A stretch of DNA of 62,947 nucleotides, filler included, from Basidiobolus ranarum (taxonomy: Eukaryota), in NCBI GenBank assembly GCA_040143965.1. It is 5 parts of 5 records of this genome, joined end to end, with 100 filler letters (N's around TTAATTAATTAA, not from the genome) between each part and the next. Parts side by side here need not be neighbours in the genome. Positions count along the whole stretch, not along the records: positions 37,863 to 50,363 come from JASJQH010000539.1; 4 more parts are not named here. One strand, given 5' to 3'. Below are positions 3,694 to 50,463 of the stretch, piece by piece; positions within the stretch are counted from its first letter, which is position 1, and every line of letters starts with the position of its first letter. The translations under genes and the position numbers were made by a program. The notes below the pieces were generated by a model, which saw only the letters and a list, made by a program, of their open reading frames with translations, had not been told where the DNA came from and did no database searches.

Positions 3694-4836
3694 TTACGAG
3701 GATCCATAAAGGGTATCAACTTTATACATATTTCCGTGTAGCGCCGAATGAATAGTAACTGACTTGCCAAATGACCAGATCCATCGATGATCTTCTTCAA
3801 CCTTGAAAAGTTCATCTGCATATCCAACACGCTCCCATTGCGGTGAATTAGAAAGAACATGCAAGAACTCTTGCCCATGTCCGTCTGGAAAGCCTTGACA
3901 TCTCGGGTGGTTTCCATCACTATATGTCTGATTATAGGCGTATTCAAGACAATGCGCAAACTGTACATCTTCCGGCCCTTGAAATGCAGCATTGCTCAAA
4001 CAATAGGGGATGTAGGGTCCAACGATGCTCAATGTCTTACGATTCATAACATAGCCTGGAGTAGCAACAATTAGTGACGATGTATTGGTGTAAACTGTAT
4101 ATATATATCGAATATTACCAGGCCCACCCCAACAAGACACTCCATCTCTACCAGTTCTTCCAAACAATAAAGGCTCGTTGTGGTCGAGTTGTGGGTTGTT
4201 CAGATGTTTCATCAATCGATGCAATTTCACATATGTATCATCATCTACCTAGAAATATCATCAGTAACAAAGTACACAACTCAAAGCCATGCGAGTAGAA
4301 AAGAACTCACCTTCATAAACCATTCAAAATCATTTAAATAGTGTTGGTATACGTAATAGAAGGCTTTAAAGGTCTTCTTGTATAGAGTACTATACTCCGT
4401 ATCTTCTACCGGGACATTTTTAAGGCCATACTCTGAGGTATCTTCATCAGTTATGAATCTCACTTCCACTTGGGAATCCGAGTTTCGTCTATCCTTTATT
4501 GCTTTCGCTTTTAAGCCCCAAGTATCTCCAACGGCTCTTGCGCGCACGTCAAGATACTCCTTGGACGTGAGAACAAGACTCAACAATGTTCTCGATTCGC
4601 CCCTTTGATTAGAGAAAAAATAAACTTTCAATAGACATTCTTTGAAGGAGAGAATAGTACGTTGTCAAGAATACTACTTACCTTTGATGACCTTCCACTT
4701 CTATTATTTTTTTGAAATCCACTCGCTGAGTCGAAAGTTGAATTAAAGTAAATATAAACAGCAGTAGTACGGATAAAGTAGTGCATATGAAAAGAAAACT
4801 TTTGGCACTAAATACACGCTTTAAGCTGTTTACCAT
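3694..4836 (-). CDS. GT31-family beta-1,3-galactosyltransferase (C1GALT1/Fringe-like), type II membrane protein
   Basis: N-terminal TM helix (FLFICTTLSVLLLFIFTLI), AVGDTWG, WFMK|VDDDTY (DxD), CWGGPG|YVM and EDVQFAHCL across four or more exons. Confidence 0.88.
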
Positions 4837-34700: not shown

Positions 34701-35244
34701 AGAGCATTCACCCCCTTCCACTTGTTTACCCCTTTAGAGCATGGCGGTGCGGTTCTCGTACTGGTGAACATGAATTTATGTTTAGTACTCTAACCAATTC
34801 AGGAATAGTACAATCGAAGTAATTCTCATGCCATTAAGCCCAATGAGCCATTCATTTTGTTCAGGAGTTCCATTCTATTGAAGTTATTAGAATTTAGGAA
34901 AATTCTCCTCTATTCACGCTTTGATGGTACTTATTGGTGCTTTCACATGAAAATAGATGTATTATCTGGCCAACATTTTGCATCTTCTATGGCCTCGTTG
35001 AGTTTCTGAGCTAGGACAGATTTTTCAAGTGGACAAAATAATCATTTAGCTGTTGGTTTCACAATGTATCTGAGCACTTGAAGTGTCTCATATTACTACT
35101 CTACCAAGTATTGCTCTTCAATGCTGATATCAATAGCAATATATAATATTAACGATAGATACACAACTATCTCATATGAAATCTGTTCCATTTGAGCAAA
35201 GACTAACCAACATTATATTTTAAAACATACATAATGTATTGTGA

Positions 35245-35410
35245 ATTAGATATTGAACTAAGATATCACCCATTATTCTCAATTGGAATTTACTTACAAG
35301 TTCTCAGATATATAGATTTTTCAACTTGTGTTAGCAGCCCTGGGCTTGGCACACATGTTTCTGGGACCTTCCTTAGCCCATTCTACAAATTAGTTTGTTT
35401 ATTGCTTGAT
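35245..35410 (+). mobile_element. Partial LTR copy, tail-to-tail with the copia 3' LTR
   Basis: ctaagatatcacccattattctc...aagttctcagatatatagattttt...ggcacacatgttt matches the internal part of the LTR family. Confidence 0.75.
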
Positions 35411-35436
35411 ATCACTCATTGATATCAAGAGCTATT

Positions 35437-35784
35437 TGTTAAAGTACTTGGGAGCCTGTTAAAAATGGTTTGGAGAATTAGAGAAAAATGGTGGTTTACA
35501 CCTATTGATTTTTTGAGTAGAAAGTTAACAGTGGTAGTTTTGTCAAGATGTAAGCAAGCTACCAAGTACAATGTGTTGTGAAACATCTCAGGAGCATGTG
35601 TGCAAAGTTTGGGGCCTCTAGCATATGTTTGAAAAATCTATACATCAGAGAGCTTGGAGTTGGTAAAAATATTCTAAATAAAATGCAATTGAGAACATTA
35701 GAAAATATCCTGGTGGAATGTAAGGTAACTAAGTACTAAGCTATATATGACTGAATAGATGTTTAGGCAATGCTACTTTTAACC
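35437..35784 (-). mobile_element. 3' LTR of the Ty1/copia element
   Basis: Starts right after the minus-strand polypurine tract TTGAGGGAGAG (35785-35795) and ends ...CTTTAACA; homologous to the solo LTRs at 8.8-10.8 kb. Confidence 0.85.
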
Positions 35785-37762
35785 CTCTCCCTCAACTAAA
35801 TAGTCATATAAACTAATCCTCAGGAAGGTCTAAATTTCTCAAATTTCTGTCTAGTTAATGGTCTGGTTAATATATCAGCAATCTTGTCTTCTATAGAACA
35901 ATAAGCTAAGTCTATAAGCTTATCCTCTATAAAGAGCAATAAGTTAAGTCAATAAACTTATTCTCTATAGTCTCTCTAATGAATTGATATCTAACATCTT
36001 TAAATTTGCTTCTATTATAAAAGGTAGGATTTTTAGTGAATTTGATATATATTTGATTATTTCAAAATATCATAGTGGGCAAGTTTTGAGAATAATCTAA
36101 ATCTGTTTAGAGATTTCTTAGTCATATTGCTTCTTTTGTTGCTTCACAGGCAGTCATGTCTTCTGCTTCTGTTGTAGAAGCTGATATGGTAGGTTGTCTC
36201 ATTGAATTCCAAGAAATAGCACCATTATAGCAAAGAAATAAGTATCCTGTGATAGACCACATGTCTTCAATATCTCCTCCCCAATTTGCATCTGAATATC
36301 ATATTAGATCAAAGTTTGATCCCAAATATGTGTATCTTAAGTACAGATCCATAGTAATTTTCAAATATCTGAAAATCACTTGACTGCTGTGATTTGATCG
36401 AATCCATAATTTTGAAGGTATTGGTACACAACTCCCACTAAATATGCAATATCTGGCCATGTTCCAACCATGATATACATCAAACTGCCAACCATAGATT
36501 GATAAGGAAATATAGGGCTATTGTTTGAATGCAAGAATGTCCGATTTGAGCCATTTTTAGTCAAACTGAGATTTGCCTCCATTGGGGTAGATGCTAGATT
36601 ACCATGTTCCATTTTAGCCTTGTTAGGTATATCTAGGATATACTTAGACTGGTTTAAAGTTATTGTTTTGTAGTACTATTTATCTCAATTTGGATTCCAA
36701 GATAATACATCAGTTCACCAAGATCAGTCATTTTGAATTTGACAGATATGATGGATTTTGTTCTCTCCAAAGTCTTTAAGTCATTGGTTGCTATAATAAG
36801 GTCATTTACATATATGGCTAATAAAACTGGGTTTGTCTTATCTGGCCTGAAGTAGATACTATAGTCAGCATTTCTCTTTTGGAATTTGAGTGTTTTCCAG
36901 AGTTTGCAAACTTTTTCAAGGTCTTCTGGGTCTACAAATCTGTTGAGCTGATCCATATAGATCTTCTCAGCAAGCTCATAATTCAAAAAAGCAATTTTGA
37001 TATCTATTCAATCTATAATGAACTGATATTTAGCTGAAATTACTGAAATCAATCTAATAGAATTAAACTTTGCTACAGGAGCAAAAGCCTGAGCATAATC
37101 TATTCCTAGTATTTAGGAATAGCCTCTGGCTATTAGTCTAGCCTGCTACCTTTCTATACTGCTACCAGAGTTGTATCAAACTTTAAACACCTATTGGGAG
37201 CCAATTGATTTTCTATCATCAGCTAAGTTGGTTAAATTCAAGTTTGAAAATCAATTAAAGCCTGGTACTCATAAGCATTGCAAATATTCTAAATTTGCAT
37301 GATGGCCATTCAGAGCCTCTTTTACAGTCTGAGGTTCATGTATTTGAGCTGTGTAGGCACAGGCTTAATTTTGTTACTAGTTGAGAATGTAATCAGAGCT
37401 ATTTCTGATCTAATTTGATCTCCTGTGTTGTATAAAGGTACTTCTACTTCAGGCATTGTATTGGGCACTTCAGTAGGCAGATTTTAGTTGAAGGGTCTGC
37501 AGGAATGCTGTTTTCTACATTGTGTTGGTGTGAATCAATTTGAACAATTGGATTGGGGGATAGTTGATTTATATCATCATATGAGGTCACTTTGGGCAAA
37601 TATTTTCTTTTCATTAAACAAAACATCACTGGACTTGATTAACTTCAAAATTTTGATGCATAGAGCCTATAGGCCTTAGTTTGAGTATAATAACCCACAA
37701 ATATGGATTTCTGACTTTTTTGATCACATTTAGACTGATTATTGGTCATAATTTTGACATAA
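35785..37762 (-). pseudogene. Decayed Ty1/copia pol (post-integrase linker, reverse transcriptase, RNase H), truncated by the contig end
   Basis: ARLIARGYS, FAPVAKFNSIR, AIYVNDLIIA (YVDD-like), MTDLGELMYYLGIQI, YQSMVGSLMYIMVGTWPDIAY, YSDANWGGD, STTEAE and ADILTRPL, with many stops and frameshifts. Confidence 0.93.
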
Positions 37763-37862
37763 NNNNNNNNNNNNNNNNNNNNNNNNNNNNNNNNNNNNNN
37801 NNNNNNTTAATTAATTAANNNNNNNNNNNNNNNNNNNNNNNNNNNNNNNNNNNNNNNNNNNN
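37763..37862. other. Artificial contig linker
   Basis: N44-TTAATTAATTAA-N44. Confidence 0.97.
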
Positions 37863-39624
37863 GCTTTGGCGCGTTTCTGGCAAGAAGTGGCACACTAAAC
37901 CCAGTCACTTCAAAAGGATTGTCAAAGGTATATTGGTAATATGTCAGATTTTGATATTGCTTATCTAATCCGAGAGAAAATCAAAAAATTAGATAATCGT
38001 CAATTTTCTATTGCCCTGCCTACTTTTCTCAAAGATGGTAACCAGTATAAATACAGAGAACTTGCCTCAAATGGGGTGAGTGTTCATTGATTCCAGACTC
38101 TATTTCAATGCACAACTAATTCAAATTTCAAGAATATTGGCATGCGTGGTACTGTTCTACATATTCCTTGGTGGTTTGTTTGGTTTGGGGTATAGATTCT
38201 TACTACCACTTCCAAAGAATTTTCGAAATGGGTTTGTTGGTAAGTTGCTCAAAACCATTTTTTAAAGATATTACTTAGTTATTGAGCCTCTTTATGTTTG
38301 AAGCTGCCTCTATCTGGGCCAATTGGGTATACTTTATTTTCGATAAGTTCGGCTATTTGTCCTCATTAATATTCAACCCATATAGGGAGATCTACCTTTG
38401 GCTGTCATGACATCAGTAGGAGATAGCCCTCCGTTTAAGCCAGGAGATAGCTCTATCGGTGTAGCTTACATGTCAGTCTTTATAGTGATGTTCAATCTTA
38501 GCCTATTTACTTTAGGGGGATACAAGTTAGTACAAAGTGACTATAGAGAAATAGAAATAGATGTAGAGGACCATATTGCTACACCAAATGGAGCAGAGGA
38601 TTTAGATGGGCTGTTTTCAGTAGAGGAAGAGGAGACAAATTCTTTAATTTGTATGCACGTACCTGCCAGAAATTACAAAAATGCACACATAGAGCCTAAT
38701 GGCATAGAAACATCAAAAAATCATTCTTTACAAGAAAAGTATTGCCTAAGAGGAGAATCAAGAGTGAATTTTCCGCAGACGGAGTGCTCCACATACATCT
38801 TCCCTGAAAGAAGGTCTGTCATACGACAACAATCGGAGCCAGTTTCAGTTCCCATGTACAGAAAAAACTCAAGTAGTAGTATCCCTACAATTTATTCAAA
38901 CGGTGACATTTTGAGCACCAAGAAAACTTGTACTTCTATCGCAAATTTCCATATAGTTGATGGAAAAGAAAGCCAAGATCCAAACGTCAGAAGCGATCCG
39001 ATACGTACTCGCACCACATTCGGTGATATCACCGACTTTGATAAGCCTAATCCAGAAAGAGTAACAAAGTTAAACACCCGTATTTACGATATTGTAGCAG
39101 TAATATTCTCACCTCCCAACGTAGCCATCATAACTGGAATTGCTATCGGTTTAATTGGATCATTGAAACACATGTGGGTTCGAGAGGGTAGTGATGATCA
39201 ACACGAGCCACCTCTGGAGTTCTTATTCCAGGTCATTTCAATGATAGGCGCCGCATATTTACCATTATCATTGGCTAATTTAGGAGGTGCTTTGGTAAAC
39301 ATTGATATCAGTGCTATACCATTGTACATTTCGCTTTCTTTTGTCGCCATCAAGTTAGTTGTCACTCCGGTTGTTGGTATCTTCACTGTTCAATTTTTGA
39401 CCTATTCGATACATTGGTTTCCGGTCGATGATAAACCTCTTCGATTTTTGGCAATGTTTGCATCGTGTGTACCCACCGCGACCTCGATAATGATTTTATC
39501 ACAATTCTTTAGCCCCACAGGTGAGGCTAAAGAGGTAGCTGCTCTGTTGGTACTTCAATATTTATTCGGAATGATCACCATGGTAGGTACACTAGCTTAT
39601 ATATTGAATCTTCTATCTGTCTAG
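37863..39624 (+). CDS. Auxin efflux carrier-family (Mem_trans; ECM3/PILS-like) transporter, 5' truncated
   Basis: Exons encode NFLLPCLLFSKM, WANW|GDLPL and GVAYMSVF; central hydrophilic loop; then SPPNVA, IGAAYLPLSLANLGGAL, KLVVTPVVG and CVPTAT. Confidence 0.88.
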
Positions 39625-43569: not shown

Positions 43570-44551
43570 ATTGCAAGGAATATATGCTCATTATATAAAT
43601 AAATCATGACTTTATGCCATAACTTTATTTGCTCGCGTTTTCTGAAAATTCTTGGGAGGGCAACGAATGCCACGTGTGTATACCAGATTCTTACAGTATT
43701 CATTTTTTTTCGTAACCTCAGCACAATGGTTGTTGGGACACCTTCCAGCGCGATGTTTGAACATCTAGTTTCTTCAACTATCTGTTACTGAATATCAACC
43801 ATTTGTGCATAGCTTCATTAGTAATGTTTTGATATTCTGTGAGCCAATTGACAGAGAGTAGCGTATCATAGTATTGTTAAAAGATACTTGATTTGATACA
43901 GTGTTTTACTCTAAAATGAGACGATTGGAAATCCAATTGAGATAATCTGAAAATTCAAATTAGACAATTCACCTTTTCTTCTGGAACGTGTACAACACAA
44001 AAAATGAGATGATTTGCTCTTATTTTTGAGACAAAACCCGGTTCTTTTTCAGACATTACTTGTCATCATTAAACAAAAATAATCTGCTAAAAGACAATAT
44101 ATCAGTGATGTATTTAAGAAAAAGCTATAACAAAAGAAATGGTGTCAGTTCGTTTTTCTCTTCCTTTTCTTTATGGAACCACCTCTAAAGATTATAGAGC
44201 AGTGGGCACTTTTGTTTGTTAGTCATACGCATATAGACAGAACATCGTCATTTATGATCATTAATTATATACCCATCACACTCTCATGTTGGCATTCATT
44301 CTTGTGCCTAAGCTACCAATCTTGTACCTTGTCACAAATGAATCAGTCAAATCCACCAAATCCAGCTGAGCTAAGCCACTACCTAAGCAAACGTAATAAG
44401 ATGGCTATGAGATAAATGAACAAAACAATTGTAGACAAATTGTGCAATTCATTGCTGTAACTCGTCATGTTTTTTGAGAGTATATGCTTAACAAACTTTT
44501 CTATCTGTAAACTAAAAAAGAGGTCAATTTTCTGTTTCTCTTCTTCTCTTT

Positions 44552-44947
44552 ATGGAACCACCATTAAAGATTATAGCAGTCAAAAACTCAATCACTGGTA
44601 TTGGGTGGAAGCCACGGTACGTTCCGCTTCTCAAATCACTCATGGCTAATGTCCATATCCTTGTAACGCACACGTTCACCTTTTTGAAGTACATTTTTAT
44701 TCAAGAATTGGAAAATGACCCTGCCTTTGCCCTGGAAAATTTTTCCAACGTTGATTTTTACAGAGAAGTCTTCTTGTCGCTTCTCCAGAATTACAAACCA
44801 AATAAACAAACAGCATCGTCAAAGTCAAGAACCTACCGAGAGCTTATCAACAACCATCGAGACTTATACTTTCAACATAGTTTATATGAGCCAATTAACT
44901 TAAAGTATGCACATCAAATAGCCTCAATTAGCCGTCCCCCTCACTAG
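44552..44947 (+). pseudogene. Truncated Fanzor1-like (eukaryotic TnpB) N-terminal fragment, probable transposon relic
   Basis: IAVKNSITGIGWKP...VHILVTHTFTFLKYIFIQELE...DFYREVFLSL...YRELINNHRDLYF...YAHQIA matches, from recall, the N-terminal region of Mucorales-type Fanzor1 proteins. Intronless; stops before the expected TAYxNNI motif; no RuvC triad seen. Confidence 0.7.
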
Positions 44948-46695
44948 TGTTTACATGCAAGCAAATTGTCATGCTGTGTCAATTGAGTGCCACCTGAATA
45001 TGCGTTTGCGTTGGCTGTAGCCTAAATTAAACGTTCCGCCTTTTTGAGCCTCCCTACTTGCAAATGTGCAGGCTGACAAAGGTGGCCGATTAGATTGGGC
45101 TTGTTTACAGATTGAAGAAATCATTGTACTACTCCGATGCTCACAGTCACCCAGATGCATTATGAATCCAAGAAGTCAAATGACAAACTGCGCCTCAACG
45201 ACAACGTAAGACCCGCATTCTTTAGGAACGGAGAACAGGGTGTTCCAGTAATCAGAGACCCTGACCAGATACCAGTTAGCAAGAACTTATGAATGAGCTA
45301 AAATGACTGTAAATGACCGCATCTGTATGAGTAGCGCTGCACTAGGGTAAAAACGTTCAGTACTTCATGTATTGTTGCAAAGGAATTATCTTCATTCTCC
45401 GCCGCCTGCATATCTTTAGGATTGGGCCGATAAACTACCAGGCTGAGTTTTACTTCTGTTGACTATGTGAGGCTATGAGGTCAGCGGTTCACAGTGTCAT
45501 GCTTGGTTTTGGCCTTGATTCATATATTTCAATTTGTCCTCAAATGGCCTCCCGACGGGTTGCTGAATCAGAAAAACAGCTGCTGTATAACTTGGAATAA
45601 AGTTTCAGAAATACCCGGAGATTACAGGAATGTAAATTCAGATAGTTGTTTGAAACAATAGATAGAGATCACCCTCCAACTAGACCATAATGGCCAGGTT
45701 TAATAAAAGTGCCAAATACGATAGCTGGCAATAGAATCAGTGGCGATGTAGAGAGGTCAGAGCTCCCGCCAACTTGAATTATGTCTCATCGGCAGCACCA
45801 GTAAATGACGATGAACATCTATGGTTGCACATAAACAGTATTTTGCACTCTCCTGGTTTGCCCAATGGAGGAGGAGGTGGAATTGGAAATATCTTGCTTC
45901 ACTGCAGTGTCATATTGCATGTGGCACTTCGGGTGTTATTCTATGCACGGCTAAAATAGTCCTGAATAATGCTTTGTGAGTTGAGCTGGTCTCATTATTT
46001 GATTTCATAAACTTGCTTTCGGGGATTTTCAGTGAGCTTTGTGTCGCGATAATTCAGCTGCACAATCAAGCAGTAAATGTGGCTTCGTATCCTCTCAGAA
46101 GACATTGTTGTCCACATGTATTGTACGGAAGAGCCTCAGACATTTGGTCAGTTCGATATCAAGCACATATCTGAATCCAAATTGGAGAATCGCACGAATA
46201 AATGATTATGGCCAGTTTGCTAAAAATTACTAATTTCTAGGATGTATTGCTTATATCTAGAAATCTATATCGGTCTATCAAATTAACAGACATTTGTTTG
46301 CTCATTGTTCGCTTAAATGCAACTAAAGTATCGCCAACTAAGCCCCTCTTAGGGCCCCTAAACTCCTCTGCCATATGATTGGAGCCCAGCATTCTGTTCA
46401 AAACATATATAATAGGCAGCGTTGTAGCTATGTCCTTCAGACGATCTGAGCCATTCCTCCACTTTCTTATCACTTTATCTACATTTCCTTAGTTCTTTTG
46501 TACCAAATCGCCCCTCAAACTCTATTACTCTTTCATCACATTAGGTAAGCTGCTTTAATATTCATTGCTCTACTTCTTCAGTTGAACGTTCACTGAAGAC
46601 ACTTGGTATTTCTCACTTCATTCTCGCATTGGATAAATCTAACAATATGAATTTCTATTTCTGCTCTTTAGATCCTAATCGAGCTTAACCTTAAT

Positions 46696-49656: not shown

Positions 49657-50363
49657 TTAAGCTAAAATGAAATATGAAGTGATGGCGATGAATGTGATGG
49701 TACTGAAAGGTACACTATAGGTTAATGTATTGGATGTTTCCGCTGAAAAATTGGTAAATTCTCTTTTTTCAAAAGAAACAGAGTTTGCATTGGGGTCAGT
49801 GTTAGAATTATCCCCAGCTCCATCGGAGCCGTTAGTTGGAGTACTAGTGTCGTTAATAGAACCAGAATCATCCCCAGTATCTTCATAGTCATCAGTTGAA
49901 GCGCTAGCGTCATCGCTTGAACCAGAATCATCCCCTGTATCTTCCGAATCATCAGTTGAAGCGCCAGCATCATTGTCAATGTTTTCAGAGTCGTCAGTTG
50001 AGGCACTAGAGTCATCACTTGAGTCAGAATCATCAGTTGAAGCGTCATTTCTAGTGTCATCCCCAGTATTTTCAGAATCATCAGTTAAGGTGCTAGCGTC
50101 ATCGCTTGAACCAGAATCATCCCCAGTGTCTTCAGAGTCATCAGTTGAAGCATCAGCATCATCTCCAGCATCTTCATTTGAGGCACTAGAGTCATCATCT
50201 CCAGAGTTGTCAGCTGAAGCACTAGTGTCATCGGTAGAATCAGAATTGTCCCCAGTGTCCTCAGAGTCAGAATTATCTTCATCGTAGTGGGAGTCATCCG
50301 CAGTACCATTATCACCATTTGAAGCAGAGTCCGGAGTAGAGGAAATAGTGTTATCAGGTAAGG
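49657..50363 (-). CDS. C-terminal part of an Asp/Ser-rich repetitive cell-surface protein with GPI-like tail (5' truncated; correct frame not in the ORF track)
   Basis: Open frame 50361 to 49657: ...ASTDDSEDTGDDSGSSDDAS repeats...SFEKREFTNFSAETSNTLTYSVPFSTITFIAITSYFILA*. Confidence 0.8.
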
Positions 50364-50463
50364 NNNNNNNNNNNNNNNNNNNNNNNNNNNNNNNNNNNNN
50401 NNNNNNNTTAATTAATTAANNNNNNNNNNNNNNNNNNNNNNNNNNNNNNNNNNNNNNNNNNNN
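50364..50463. other. Artificial contig linker
   Basis: N44-TTAATTAATTAA-N44. Confidence 0.97.

What the first reader, a model, noticed from the sequence alone, without database searches (positions are those of the whole stretch)
44552..44947. Fanzor1-like (eukaryotic RNA-guided TnpB) fragment between calmodulin and a PH-domain gene
Seen: an intronless 131-aa ORF in an otherwise intron-rich region, with motifs KNSITGIGWK, VTHTFTFLKYIF, FYREVFLSL, YRELI and AHQIA. Known: Fanzor1 proteins are transposon-borne, omega-RNA-guided nucleases reported in Mucorales and chytrids, and as I recall their N-terminal region follows this pattern before TAYxNNI. Inference: this is an internally deleted or truncated copy, implying that an intact Fanzor family may exist elsewhere in this genome and lineage. 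It retains about 10 CpGs in 400 bp, unlike the copia relic, which suggests a recent or low-copy insertion.
Basis: partly seen in the sequence, partly recalled or inferred. Interest (0 to 1): 0.85.

Follow-up and report, generated by a model that had tools for sequence, protein, structure and literature searches.

The report
Dead Fanzor1 transposon front end
The flagged reading frame is the front fifth of a Fanzor1 RNA-guided nuclease gene, left behind with one transposon end in a Basidiobolus genome, and it is ordinary transposon debris that cannot cut DNA or move.

Summary
Its only match among solved structures is Parasitella parasitica Fanzor1 (E 2.6e-24). Its predicted fold superposes on that structure (TM 0.77). 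Its closest long relatives are Fanzor1 proteins of 593-713 aa.

Homology covers only codons 1-125 and stops at 44925/44926. Nothing else in the 63-kb window resembles a Fanzor, so the RuvC nuclease, the zinc finger and the 3' end where the guide RNA lies in studied Fanzors are missing.

A metagenome relative (L001) shows the parent element: 2.86 kb, 135-nt terminal inverted repeats, TA flanks, no transposase gene. The window keeps the left repeat (TA|CAGTG..., 43897-43926) but no right partner. The relic therefore spans about 43897-44926. It also holds a roughly 70-nt duplicate of the 5'UTR and start codon.

The host is Basidiobolus ranarum. No searchable paper names Fanzor together with Basidiobolus.

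Verdict: a 3'-truncated, immobile Fanzor1 relic. It is a new member of a known kind and of low interest. The closest named relatives are from Rhizopus (about 70% identity), which hints at horizontal transfer.

The parts
43897..43898 (.). TA dinucleotide abutting the left terminal repeat; putative Tc1/mariner-type target site
   Evidence: The sequence reads TA|CAGTG. L001 has TA next to both repeat tips. The right-hand copy is absent here, so a duplication cannot be shown.
43899..44035 (+). Left terminal inverted repeat of the Fanzor1-carrying element. The tip is well conserved. The inner boundary is approximate.
   Evidence: 43897-43926 matches the L001 right arm (reverse complement) at 93% over 30 nt and the left arm at 87% over 31 nt. 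A gapped alignment extends to about 44001-44034 at 64-67%. The 28-nt tip occurs once in the window with up to 3 mismatches, against 0 expected in 100 shuffles.
44129..44203 (+). Stub: a duplicate of the element's 5'UTR, ATG and first 8 or so codons (MEPPLKII), then unrelated sequence
   Evidence: 44129-44197 matches 44510-44576 at 78% over 69 nt, the only internal duplication in 43880-44960. The core is 39/43 identical. It is 84% identical to L001 2200-2243. Three-way alignment.
44510..44551 (+). 5' untranslated leader of the Fanzor1 gene, homologous to L001
   Evidence: DNA homology to L001 starts at 44513 (= L001 2184).
44552..44926 (+). Fanzor1 codons 1-125: a low-confidence N-terminal segment followed by the helices that match the front of PpFz1
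   Evidence: The AlphaFold2 model has pLDDT 84.9 with helices at 21-55, 67-76, 90-110 and 120-126. Foldseek gives PpFz1 TM 0.77, rmsd 1.6 A. DNA identity to L001 is 76%.
44925..44926 (.). Breakpoint: the end of all homology to Fanzor genes
   Evidence: The nucleotide alignment with L001 stops after ...ATAGCCTC. The protein alignment stops at residue 125, where relatives continue with YEV.KI.TAY.
44927..44947 (+). Non-homologous read-through tail (ISRPPH) and the TAG stop

Best explanation
The region 43897-44926 is the 3'-truncated left part of a non-autonomous Fanzor1 DNA transposon with Tc1/mariner-like ends, inserted downstream of the calmodulin gene of Basidiobolus ranarum. What survives is the left terminal inverted repeat, a rearranged 5' region and the first 125 codons of the Fanzor1 gene. 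Those codons happen to stay open for six more codons into unrelated DNA. The lost parts are about 80% of the gene (the rest of WED, the RuvC D-E-D nuclease and the zinc-finger TNB domain), the 3' end where the guide omegaRNA is encoded in studied Fanzors, and the right terminal repeat. The relic therefore cannot bind a guide, cut DNA or be mobilised. Shown: the homology, its extent, the breakpoint, the single repeat end and the absence of all other parts from the window. Inferred: the domain names of the surviving part, the TA target site, and that the loss was a deletion or rearrangement after insertion.
For: PpFz1 is the only PDB sequence hit (E 2.6e-24, query 3-124). The fold model (pLDDT 84.9) matches PpFz1 at TM 0.77 and rmsd 1.6 A over 106 columns, with SpuFz1 next. 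The four 'longer' hits include 593-, 625- and 713-aa proteins. Two of these, P0004 and P0002, were compared with the PDB. P0004 matches PpFz1 at E 9.5e-158 and P0002 at 6.3e-144. Against SpuFz1 they give 7e-50 and 2.1e-43. tblastn of four relatives on the whole window hits only 44552-44926; every other hit has E >= 0.63. The L001 element has 135-nt repeats at 89% complementarity and TA flanks. The window matches its repeat tip, its leader and its first 125 codons (76% over 416 nt), and nothing beyond. The window's repeat tip is unique and has no inverted partner. Passages of Xu et al. 2024 (PMC11423790) place the omegaRNA interface on RuvC/TNB and the RuvC-WED junction, which are absent here. 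Passages of Bao & Jurka 2013 (PMC3627910) describe Fanzor1-only elements with Mariner repeats and TA duplications.
Against: The fragment looks well kept. The frame is open from the native ATG. It holds the consensus residue at 16 of 17 columns that are at least 80% conserved among 77 relatives, and at 39 of 44 columns that are at least 60% conserved. CpG is not depleted, unlike the copia relic. That is what a young relic would show, but it is also what a retained gene would show. Transcription could not be tested. The assembly could not be checked with reads, so a misjoin at 44926 is not excluded. The left-end anatomy (stub duplicate, shorter spacer than in L001) is not fully explained.
Confidence: 0.9

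Rival explanations
1. The 131-aa ORF is a retained, expressed stand-alone protein: a Fanzor front domain co-opted, for example, to interfere with or regulate active Fanzor copies.
For: The frame is open from the native start. It keeps 16 of 17 strongly conserved residues. The model folds confidently as a helical unit (pLDDT 84.9). CpG o/e is 0.77, like host genes and unlike the copia relic.
Against: An open frame of this length arises by chance (11 of 500 shuffles). The exact protein is not in the 15-billion-protein collection, although other B. ranarum proteins are. The best hit in the 'near' length class is 75% identical, so no orthologue with the same truncation was seen. The ORF tail is six unrelated codons. 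The second stub and the single repeat end look like debris.
Confidence: 0.04
2. The gene is whole in the organism, and the break at 44926 is an assembly misjoin or a very long intron.
For: Multi-copy elements often cause assembly errors, and no read data could be laid here.
Against: No later Fanzor coding sequence occurs on either strand in the 18 kb downstream or anywhere else in the window. No right terminal repeat exists. The break has no splice-donor GT. The flanking host genes are in normal order.
Confidence: 0.04
3. The relic is two independent, nested or adjacent insertions of related elements, each truncated, rather than one element with an internal duplication.
For: There are two copies of the leader and ATG, 381 nt apart and only 78% alike. 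A weak second match to the inner part of the L001 repeat lies at 44408-44500 (67%, E 2e-4).
Against: Only one repeat tip exists. The 306 nt between the two copies has no other similarity to L001. With a single outside element to compare, the two models cannot be told apart.
Confidence: 0.3

Closest known systems
Parasitella parasitica Fanzor1 (PpFz1; PDB 9cf0-9cf3; Xu et al. 2024, PMC11423790, passages read)
   Same: The N-terminal region is homologous at about 43% identity (phmmer E 2.6e-24). The predicted fold superposes at rmsd 1.6 A.
   Different: PpFz1 is a complete omegaRNA-guided nuclease with RuvC, TNB and an FRI insertion. The window holds only the first 125 codons and no guide region.
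Fanzor1-only elements with Tc1/mariner ends and TA duplications (e.g. PUl-4; Bao & Jurka 2013, PMC3627910, passages read)
   Same: The relative L001 carries only a Fanzor frame between long inverted repeats flanked by TA. The window has the same kind of left end, TA|CAGTG.
   Different: No sequence comparison with those named elements was made. The window copy has only one end. That CAGTG is a Tc1-like terminus is recalled, not tested.
Fanzor1 families of Mucorales (Rhizopus, Mucor, Phycomyces; Table 1 of Bao & Jurka 2013)
   Same: The closest named relatives are Mucorales proteins: Rhizopus microsporus at 69-70%, Gilbertella, Spinellus, Pilaira and Helicostylum.
   Different: The host here is Basidiobolus ranarum, phylum Basidiobolomycota, which is not in that table. 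The MuDR-type ends reported for some Mucorales Fanzor elements are not what is seen here.

Membership tests
Fanzor1 (eukaryotic TnpB-like omegaRNA-guided nuclease) | Sequence and fold homology to experimentally characterised Fanzor1 proteins | tested here: met
   PpFz1 at E 2.6e-24. Foldseek gives PpFz1 TM 0.77 and SpuFz1 TM 0.60, prob 0.97. This holds for residues 1-125 only.
Fanzor1 (eukaryotic TnpB-like omegaRNA-guided nuclease) | C-terminal RuvC catalytic triad D...E...D (motif given in the Bao & Jurka 2013 abstract) | tested here: not met
   Absent from the ORF and from the whole window. It is present in relatives: IDPGRRD, DEFKTSS and WNRD in P0004.
Fanzor1 (eukaryotic TnpB-like omegaRNA-guided nuclease) | C4 zinc finger / TNB domain | tested here: not met
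   No such sequence in the window. Relatives have CPxC, and P0004 has a weak PF07282 hit.
Fanzor1 (eukaryotic TnpB-like omegaRNA-guided nuclease) | omegaRNA encoded at the 3' end of the gene and the right transposon end | tested here: not met
   No 3' gene part and no right repeat. No Rfam match in the window. The stretch 44927-45300 folds no better than shuffles (z -0.82). No omegaRNA model for this family was available, so this rests on the missing 3' end.
Tc1/mariner-type non-autonomous DNA transposon | Terminal inverted repeats at both ends | tested here: not met
   Only the left repeat is present in the window. The relative L001 has both, 135 nt at 89%.
Tc1/mariner-type non-autonomous DNA transposon | TA target-site duplication | tested here: inconclusive
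   TA abuts the left repeat in the window and both ends in L001. TA is its own reverse complement, so it may equally be part of the repeat. No empty site was available.
Tc1/mariner-type non-autonomous DNA transposon | Related autonomous element with a DDE transposase and the same ends | not tested
   No genome is held for the window, and none was seen in the window or in L001.

The most novel reading that the evidence does not exclude
The truncated ORF is not debris but a retained stand-alone Fanzor front-domain protein, transcribed from the element's own leader, which modulates or blocks active Fanzor1 copies in Basidiobolus. A milder and more likely novelty is that this Fanzor1 lineage moved horizontally between Mucorales and Basidiobolus.
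Probability: 0.04. Interest if true: 0.55.

Novelty: new member of a known kind. Interest (0 to 1): 0.15.

Why it matters
It matters little in itself, because broken Fanzor copies are common. Two modest points follow. First, a Fanzor1 lineage with Tc1/mariner-like ends is, or was, present in Basidiobolus (Basidiobolomycota). I found no paper naming this host together with Fanzor. Second, the copies in this clade start directly at MEPPLKI, without the extension seen upstream of that point in some relatives (35 residues in P0004). They are also about 70% identical between Basidiobolus and Rhizopus microsporus. That could guide a search for intact compact Fanzor1 genes and a test of horizontal transposon transfer between fungal phyla.

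Tried and rejected
Pfam gave no family for the ORF. It also gave none for three of its four closest long relatives; P0004 alone had a sub-threshold PF07282 hit.

Copy number, intact copies, transcription and assembly correctness therefore stay untested.

Looking for a right end or an internal-deletion structure found none.

Looking for a structured RNA just after the break found nothing above background, and Rfam had no match in the window.

Element ends therefore rest on a single outside copy (L001). Read in a single frame, L001's Fanzor gene meets a stop after about 70 aa and many more further on.

The earlier-findings index had nothing for this genome or sequence. A word search returned only dead Fanzor fragments from other genomes, which did not change my reading.

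One literature search was badly framed and returned no Fanzor paper.

I considered the CpG argument for a recent insertion. The contrast with the copia relic is real, but the fragment's CpG level equals that of the flanking non-coding DNA (0.59-0.61 against 0.77), so it dates nothing by itself.

Full report
**Observation.** A frame this long is not remarkable by length alone. Eleven of 500 shuffles of the 3-kb intergenic stretch gave a stop-free frame of at least 143 codons. The flanking genes are as described: an EF-hand, calmodulin-like ORF upstream and a PH-domain ORF downstream. The 'copia relic' at 36660-37007 matches RVT_2.

**Identity.** Pfam has no model that hits the peptide.
- phmmer against all PDB chains finds exactly one sequence, Parasitella parasitica Fanzor1. 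The match is E 2.6e-24, query residues 3-124 against chain residues 512-632 of the MBP fusion.
- An AlphaFold2 model built on a 45-row alignment has mean pLDDT 84.9. It has a low-confidence first 20 residues, then helices at 21-55, 67-76, 90-110 and 120-126.
- Foldseek puts PpFz1 first (E 1.8e-5, TM 0.77, rmsd 1.6 A, 106 columns, 43% identity). SpuFz1 entries come next (TM 0.60, probability 0.97). Only these first matches are Fanzors, and only the two PpFz1 rows reach E 0.001 or lower.
- The word-indexed search for longer proteins returned 4 hits among 266 candidates. They are P0002 (593 aa, 68% identity), P0003 (247 aa, Basidiobolus ranarum, 65%), P0004 (713 aa, 48%) and P0005 (625 aa, Pilaira anomala, 48%).
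- Two of these were compared with the PDB. P0004 matches PpFz1 at E 9.5e-158 and P0002 at 6.3e-144. Against SpuFz1 they give 7e-50 and 2.1e-43.
- They carry the RuvC and zinc-finger motifs: IDPGRRD, DEFKTSS..CPxC, and WNRD in P0004.
- The exhaustive HMMER search found 141 cluster representatives at E <= 1e-3, 63 at <= 1e-10 and 4 at <= 1e-30. Many are short fragments.

By the general TnpB/Fanzor architecture, which I recall rather than tested, the surviving part is the first WED strand plus REC helices. I did not obtain domain boundaries from any call.

**Extent.** Homology stops abruptly.
- tblastn of P0002-P0005 on the window hits only 44552-44926. Every other hit has E >= 0.63.
- In the protein alignment the window matches through residue 125 (...AHQIAS). 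It then reads ISRPPH-stop where relatives continue with YEV.KI.TAY.N.
- The nucleotide alignment with L001 ends at 44925.

**The parent element.** This locus, L001, has a Fanzor frame from an ATG at 2220. The frame is broken when read straight through. It lies between 135-nt inverted repeats (1721-1855 and 4446-4580, 89% complementary) that contain internal direct repeats. The repeat core TAGTG... is flanked by TA at both ends. No transposase frame is present.

The window matches L001 in three places:
- 44513-44925 against L001 2184-2594, 76% over 416 nt. This covers the leader and codons 1-125.
- 44153-44196, 84%.
- 43897-43926 against the repeat tip, 93% to the right arm and 87% to the left arm.

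A gapped alignment carries the repeat homology on to about 44001-44034 at 64-67% identity. The window sequence reads TA|CAGTGTTTTACTC... at 43897. This tip occurs once in the window with up to 3 mismatches and has no inverted partner.

It consists of the left end, a 5' region and a fifth of the gene. This is a 3' truncation, not an internal deletion that keeps both ends.

**Unexplained anatomy.** Self-comparison of 43880-44960 shows a single internal duplication. The stretch 44129-44197 matches 44510-44576 at 78%, and it covers the leader, the ATG and about 8 codons. A weak second match to the inner L001 repeat lies at 44408-44500. Either the left part was partly duplicated, or two related elements landed together and were both truncated. 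One outside copy cannot decide between these.

**State of preservation.**
- The fragment holds the consensus residue at 16 of 17 columns conserved in at least 80% of 77 relatives, and at 39 of 44 columns conserved in at least 60%. Those 77 are the proteins, out of 169 BLAST-matched ones, that span query positions <= 12 to >= 115.
- CpG o/e is 0.77 (11 CpG). This compares with 0.59-0.61 in the flanking non-coding DNA, 0.64-0.88 in the neighbouring genes, and 0.04 in the copia region.

This fits a fairly young relic that escaped whatever stripped CpG from the copia element. It does not prove function.

**Host and distribution.**
- A 412-aa ORF in the window is 100% identical over its full length to a Basidiobolus ranarum protein, phylum Basidiobolomycota.
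- The ORF's exact sequence is not in the protein collection.
- The best hit in the 'near' length class is 75% identical and unnamed. Rhizopus microsporus follows at 69-70%.
- Named relatives are Mucorales (Rhizopus, Gilbertella, Spinellus, Pilaira, Helicostylum, Backusella), Bifiguratus, Syncephalis and Coemansia. By phmmer identity, Backusella and Syncephalis are at 36% and Coemansia at 27%.
- A quick tree used 48 of the 78 aligned rows, the closest by BLAST rank, over 126 columns. It puts the window in a 7-row clade (SH-aLRT 96) with the two R. microsporus proteins and B. ranarum P0003. That clade is nested beside a Gilbertella pair.

About 70% identity between phyla, in a region that Bao & Jurka's abstract calls highly variable, hints at horizontal transfer. 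No host-gene baseline could be computed, and most rows are unnamed.

**Mechanism.** Passages of Xu et al. 2024 place omegaRNA binding on RuvC/TNB and the RuvC-WED junction, and place TAM recognition on WED plus REC. The window copy lacks RuvC, TNB, most of WED, the 3' end where the guide lies in studied Fanzors, and the right repeat. It can therefore neither cut DNA nor be mobilised. I put 0.9 on a dead relic, about 0.04 on a retained small protein, and about 0.04 on an assembly or intron artefact.

**Literature.** No paper in the searched library holds both 'Fanzor' and 'Basidiobolus'. One paper holds 'Fanzor' and 'Zoopagomycota', seen as a listing only. Table 1 of Bao & Jurka 2013 lists Rhizopus, Mucor, Phycomyces, Spizellomyces and Allomyces but not Basidiobolus.

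**Verdict.** The feature is a new member of a known kind and of low interest.

Noticed in passing
window 35000-38000: The copia-type relic (RVT_2 hit at 36660-37007, minus strand) lies in a block almost free of CpG: 7 CpG in 3 kb, o/e 0.09, with TpG/CpA o/e 1.27. The window as a whole is at 0.69. This points to repeat-targeted C-to-T decay that the Fanzor relic escaped.
   Followed up: partly
window 44552-44926; proteins P0028, P0170, P0003: The Basidiobolus Fanzor fragment is 69-70% identical to Rhizopus microsporus fragments and 65% to another B. ranarum copy, and all sit in one well-supported clade. Other Mucorales, Syncephalis and Coemansia relatives are at 27-48%. This may be horizontal transposon transfer between fungal phyla. 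No host-gene baseline was made.
   Followed up: partly
L001 1721-4580: This metagenome contig carries a 2.86-kb Fanzor1-only element. It has 135-nt inverted repeats holding internal direct repeats (spacing 65 nt, reminiscent of IR-DR ends), TA flanks, and a Fanzor frame that is broken when read straight through.
   Followed up: partly
window 49657-50415 (minus strand): A long acidic Ser/Asp-rich repetitive ORF runs into a stretch of unknown bases, read as a run of X near its 5' end. This is probably an assembly gap inside a repeat.
   Followed up: no
window 38386-39624: An auxin-efflux-carrier-family membrane protein (PF03547) has several diverged paralogues in B. ranarum and B. meristosporus at 44-65% identity.
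   Followed up: no
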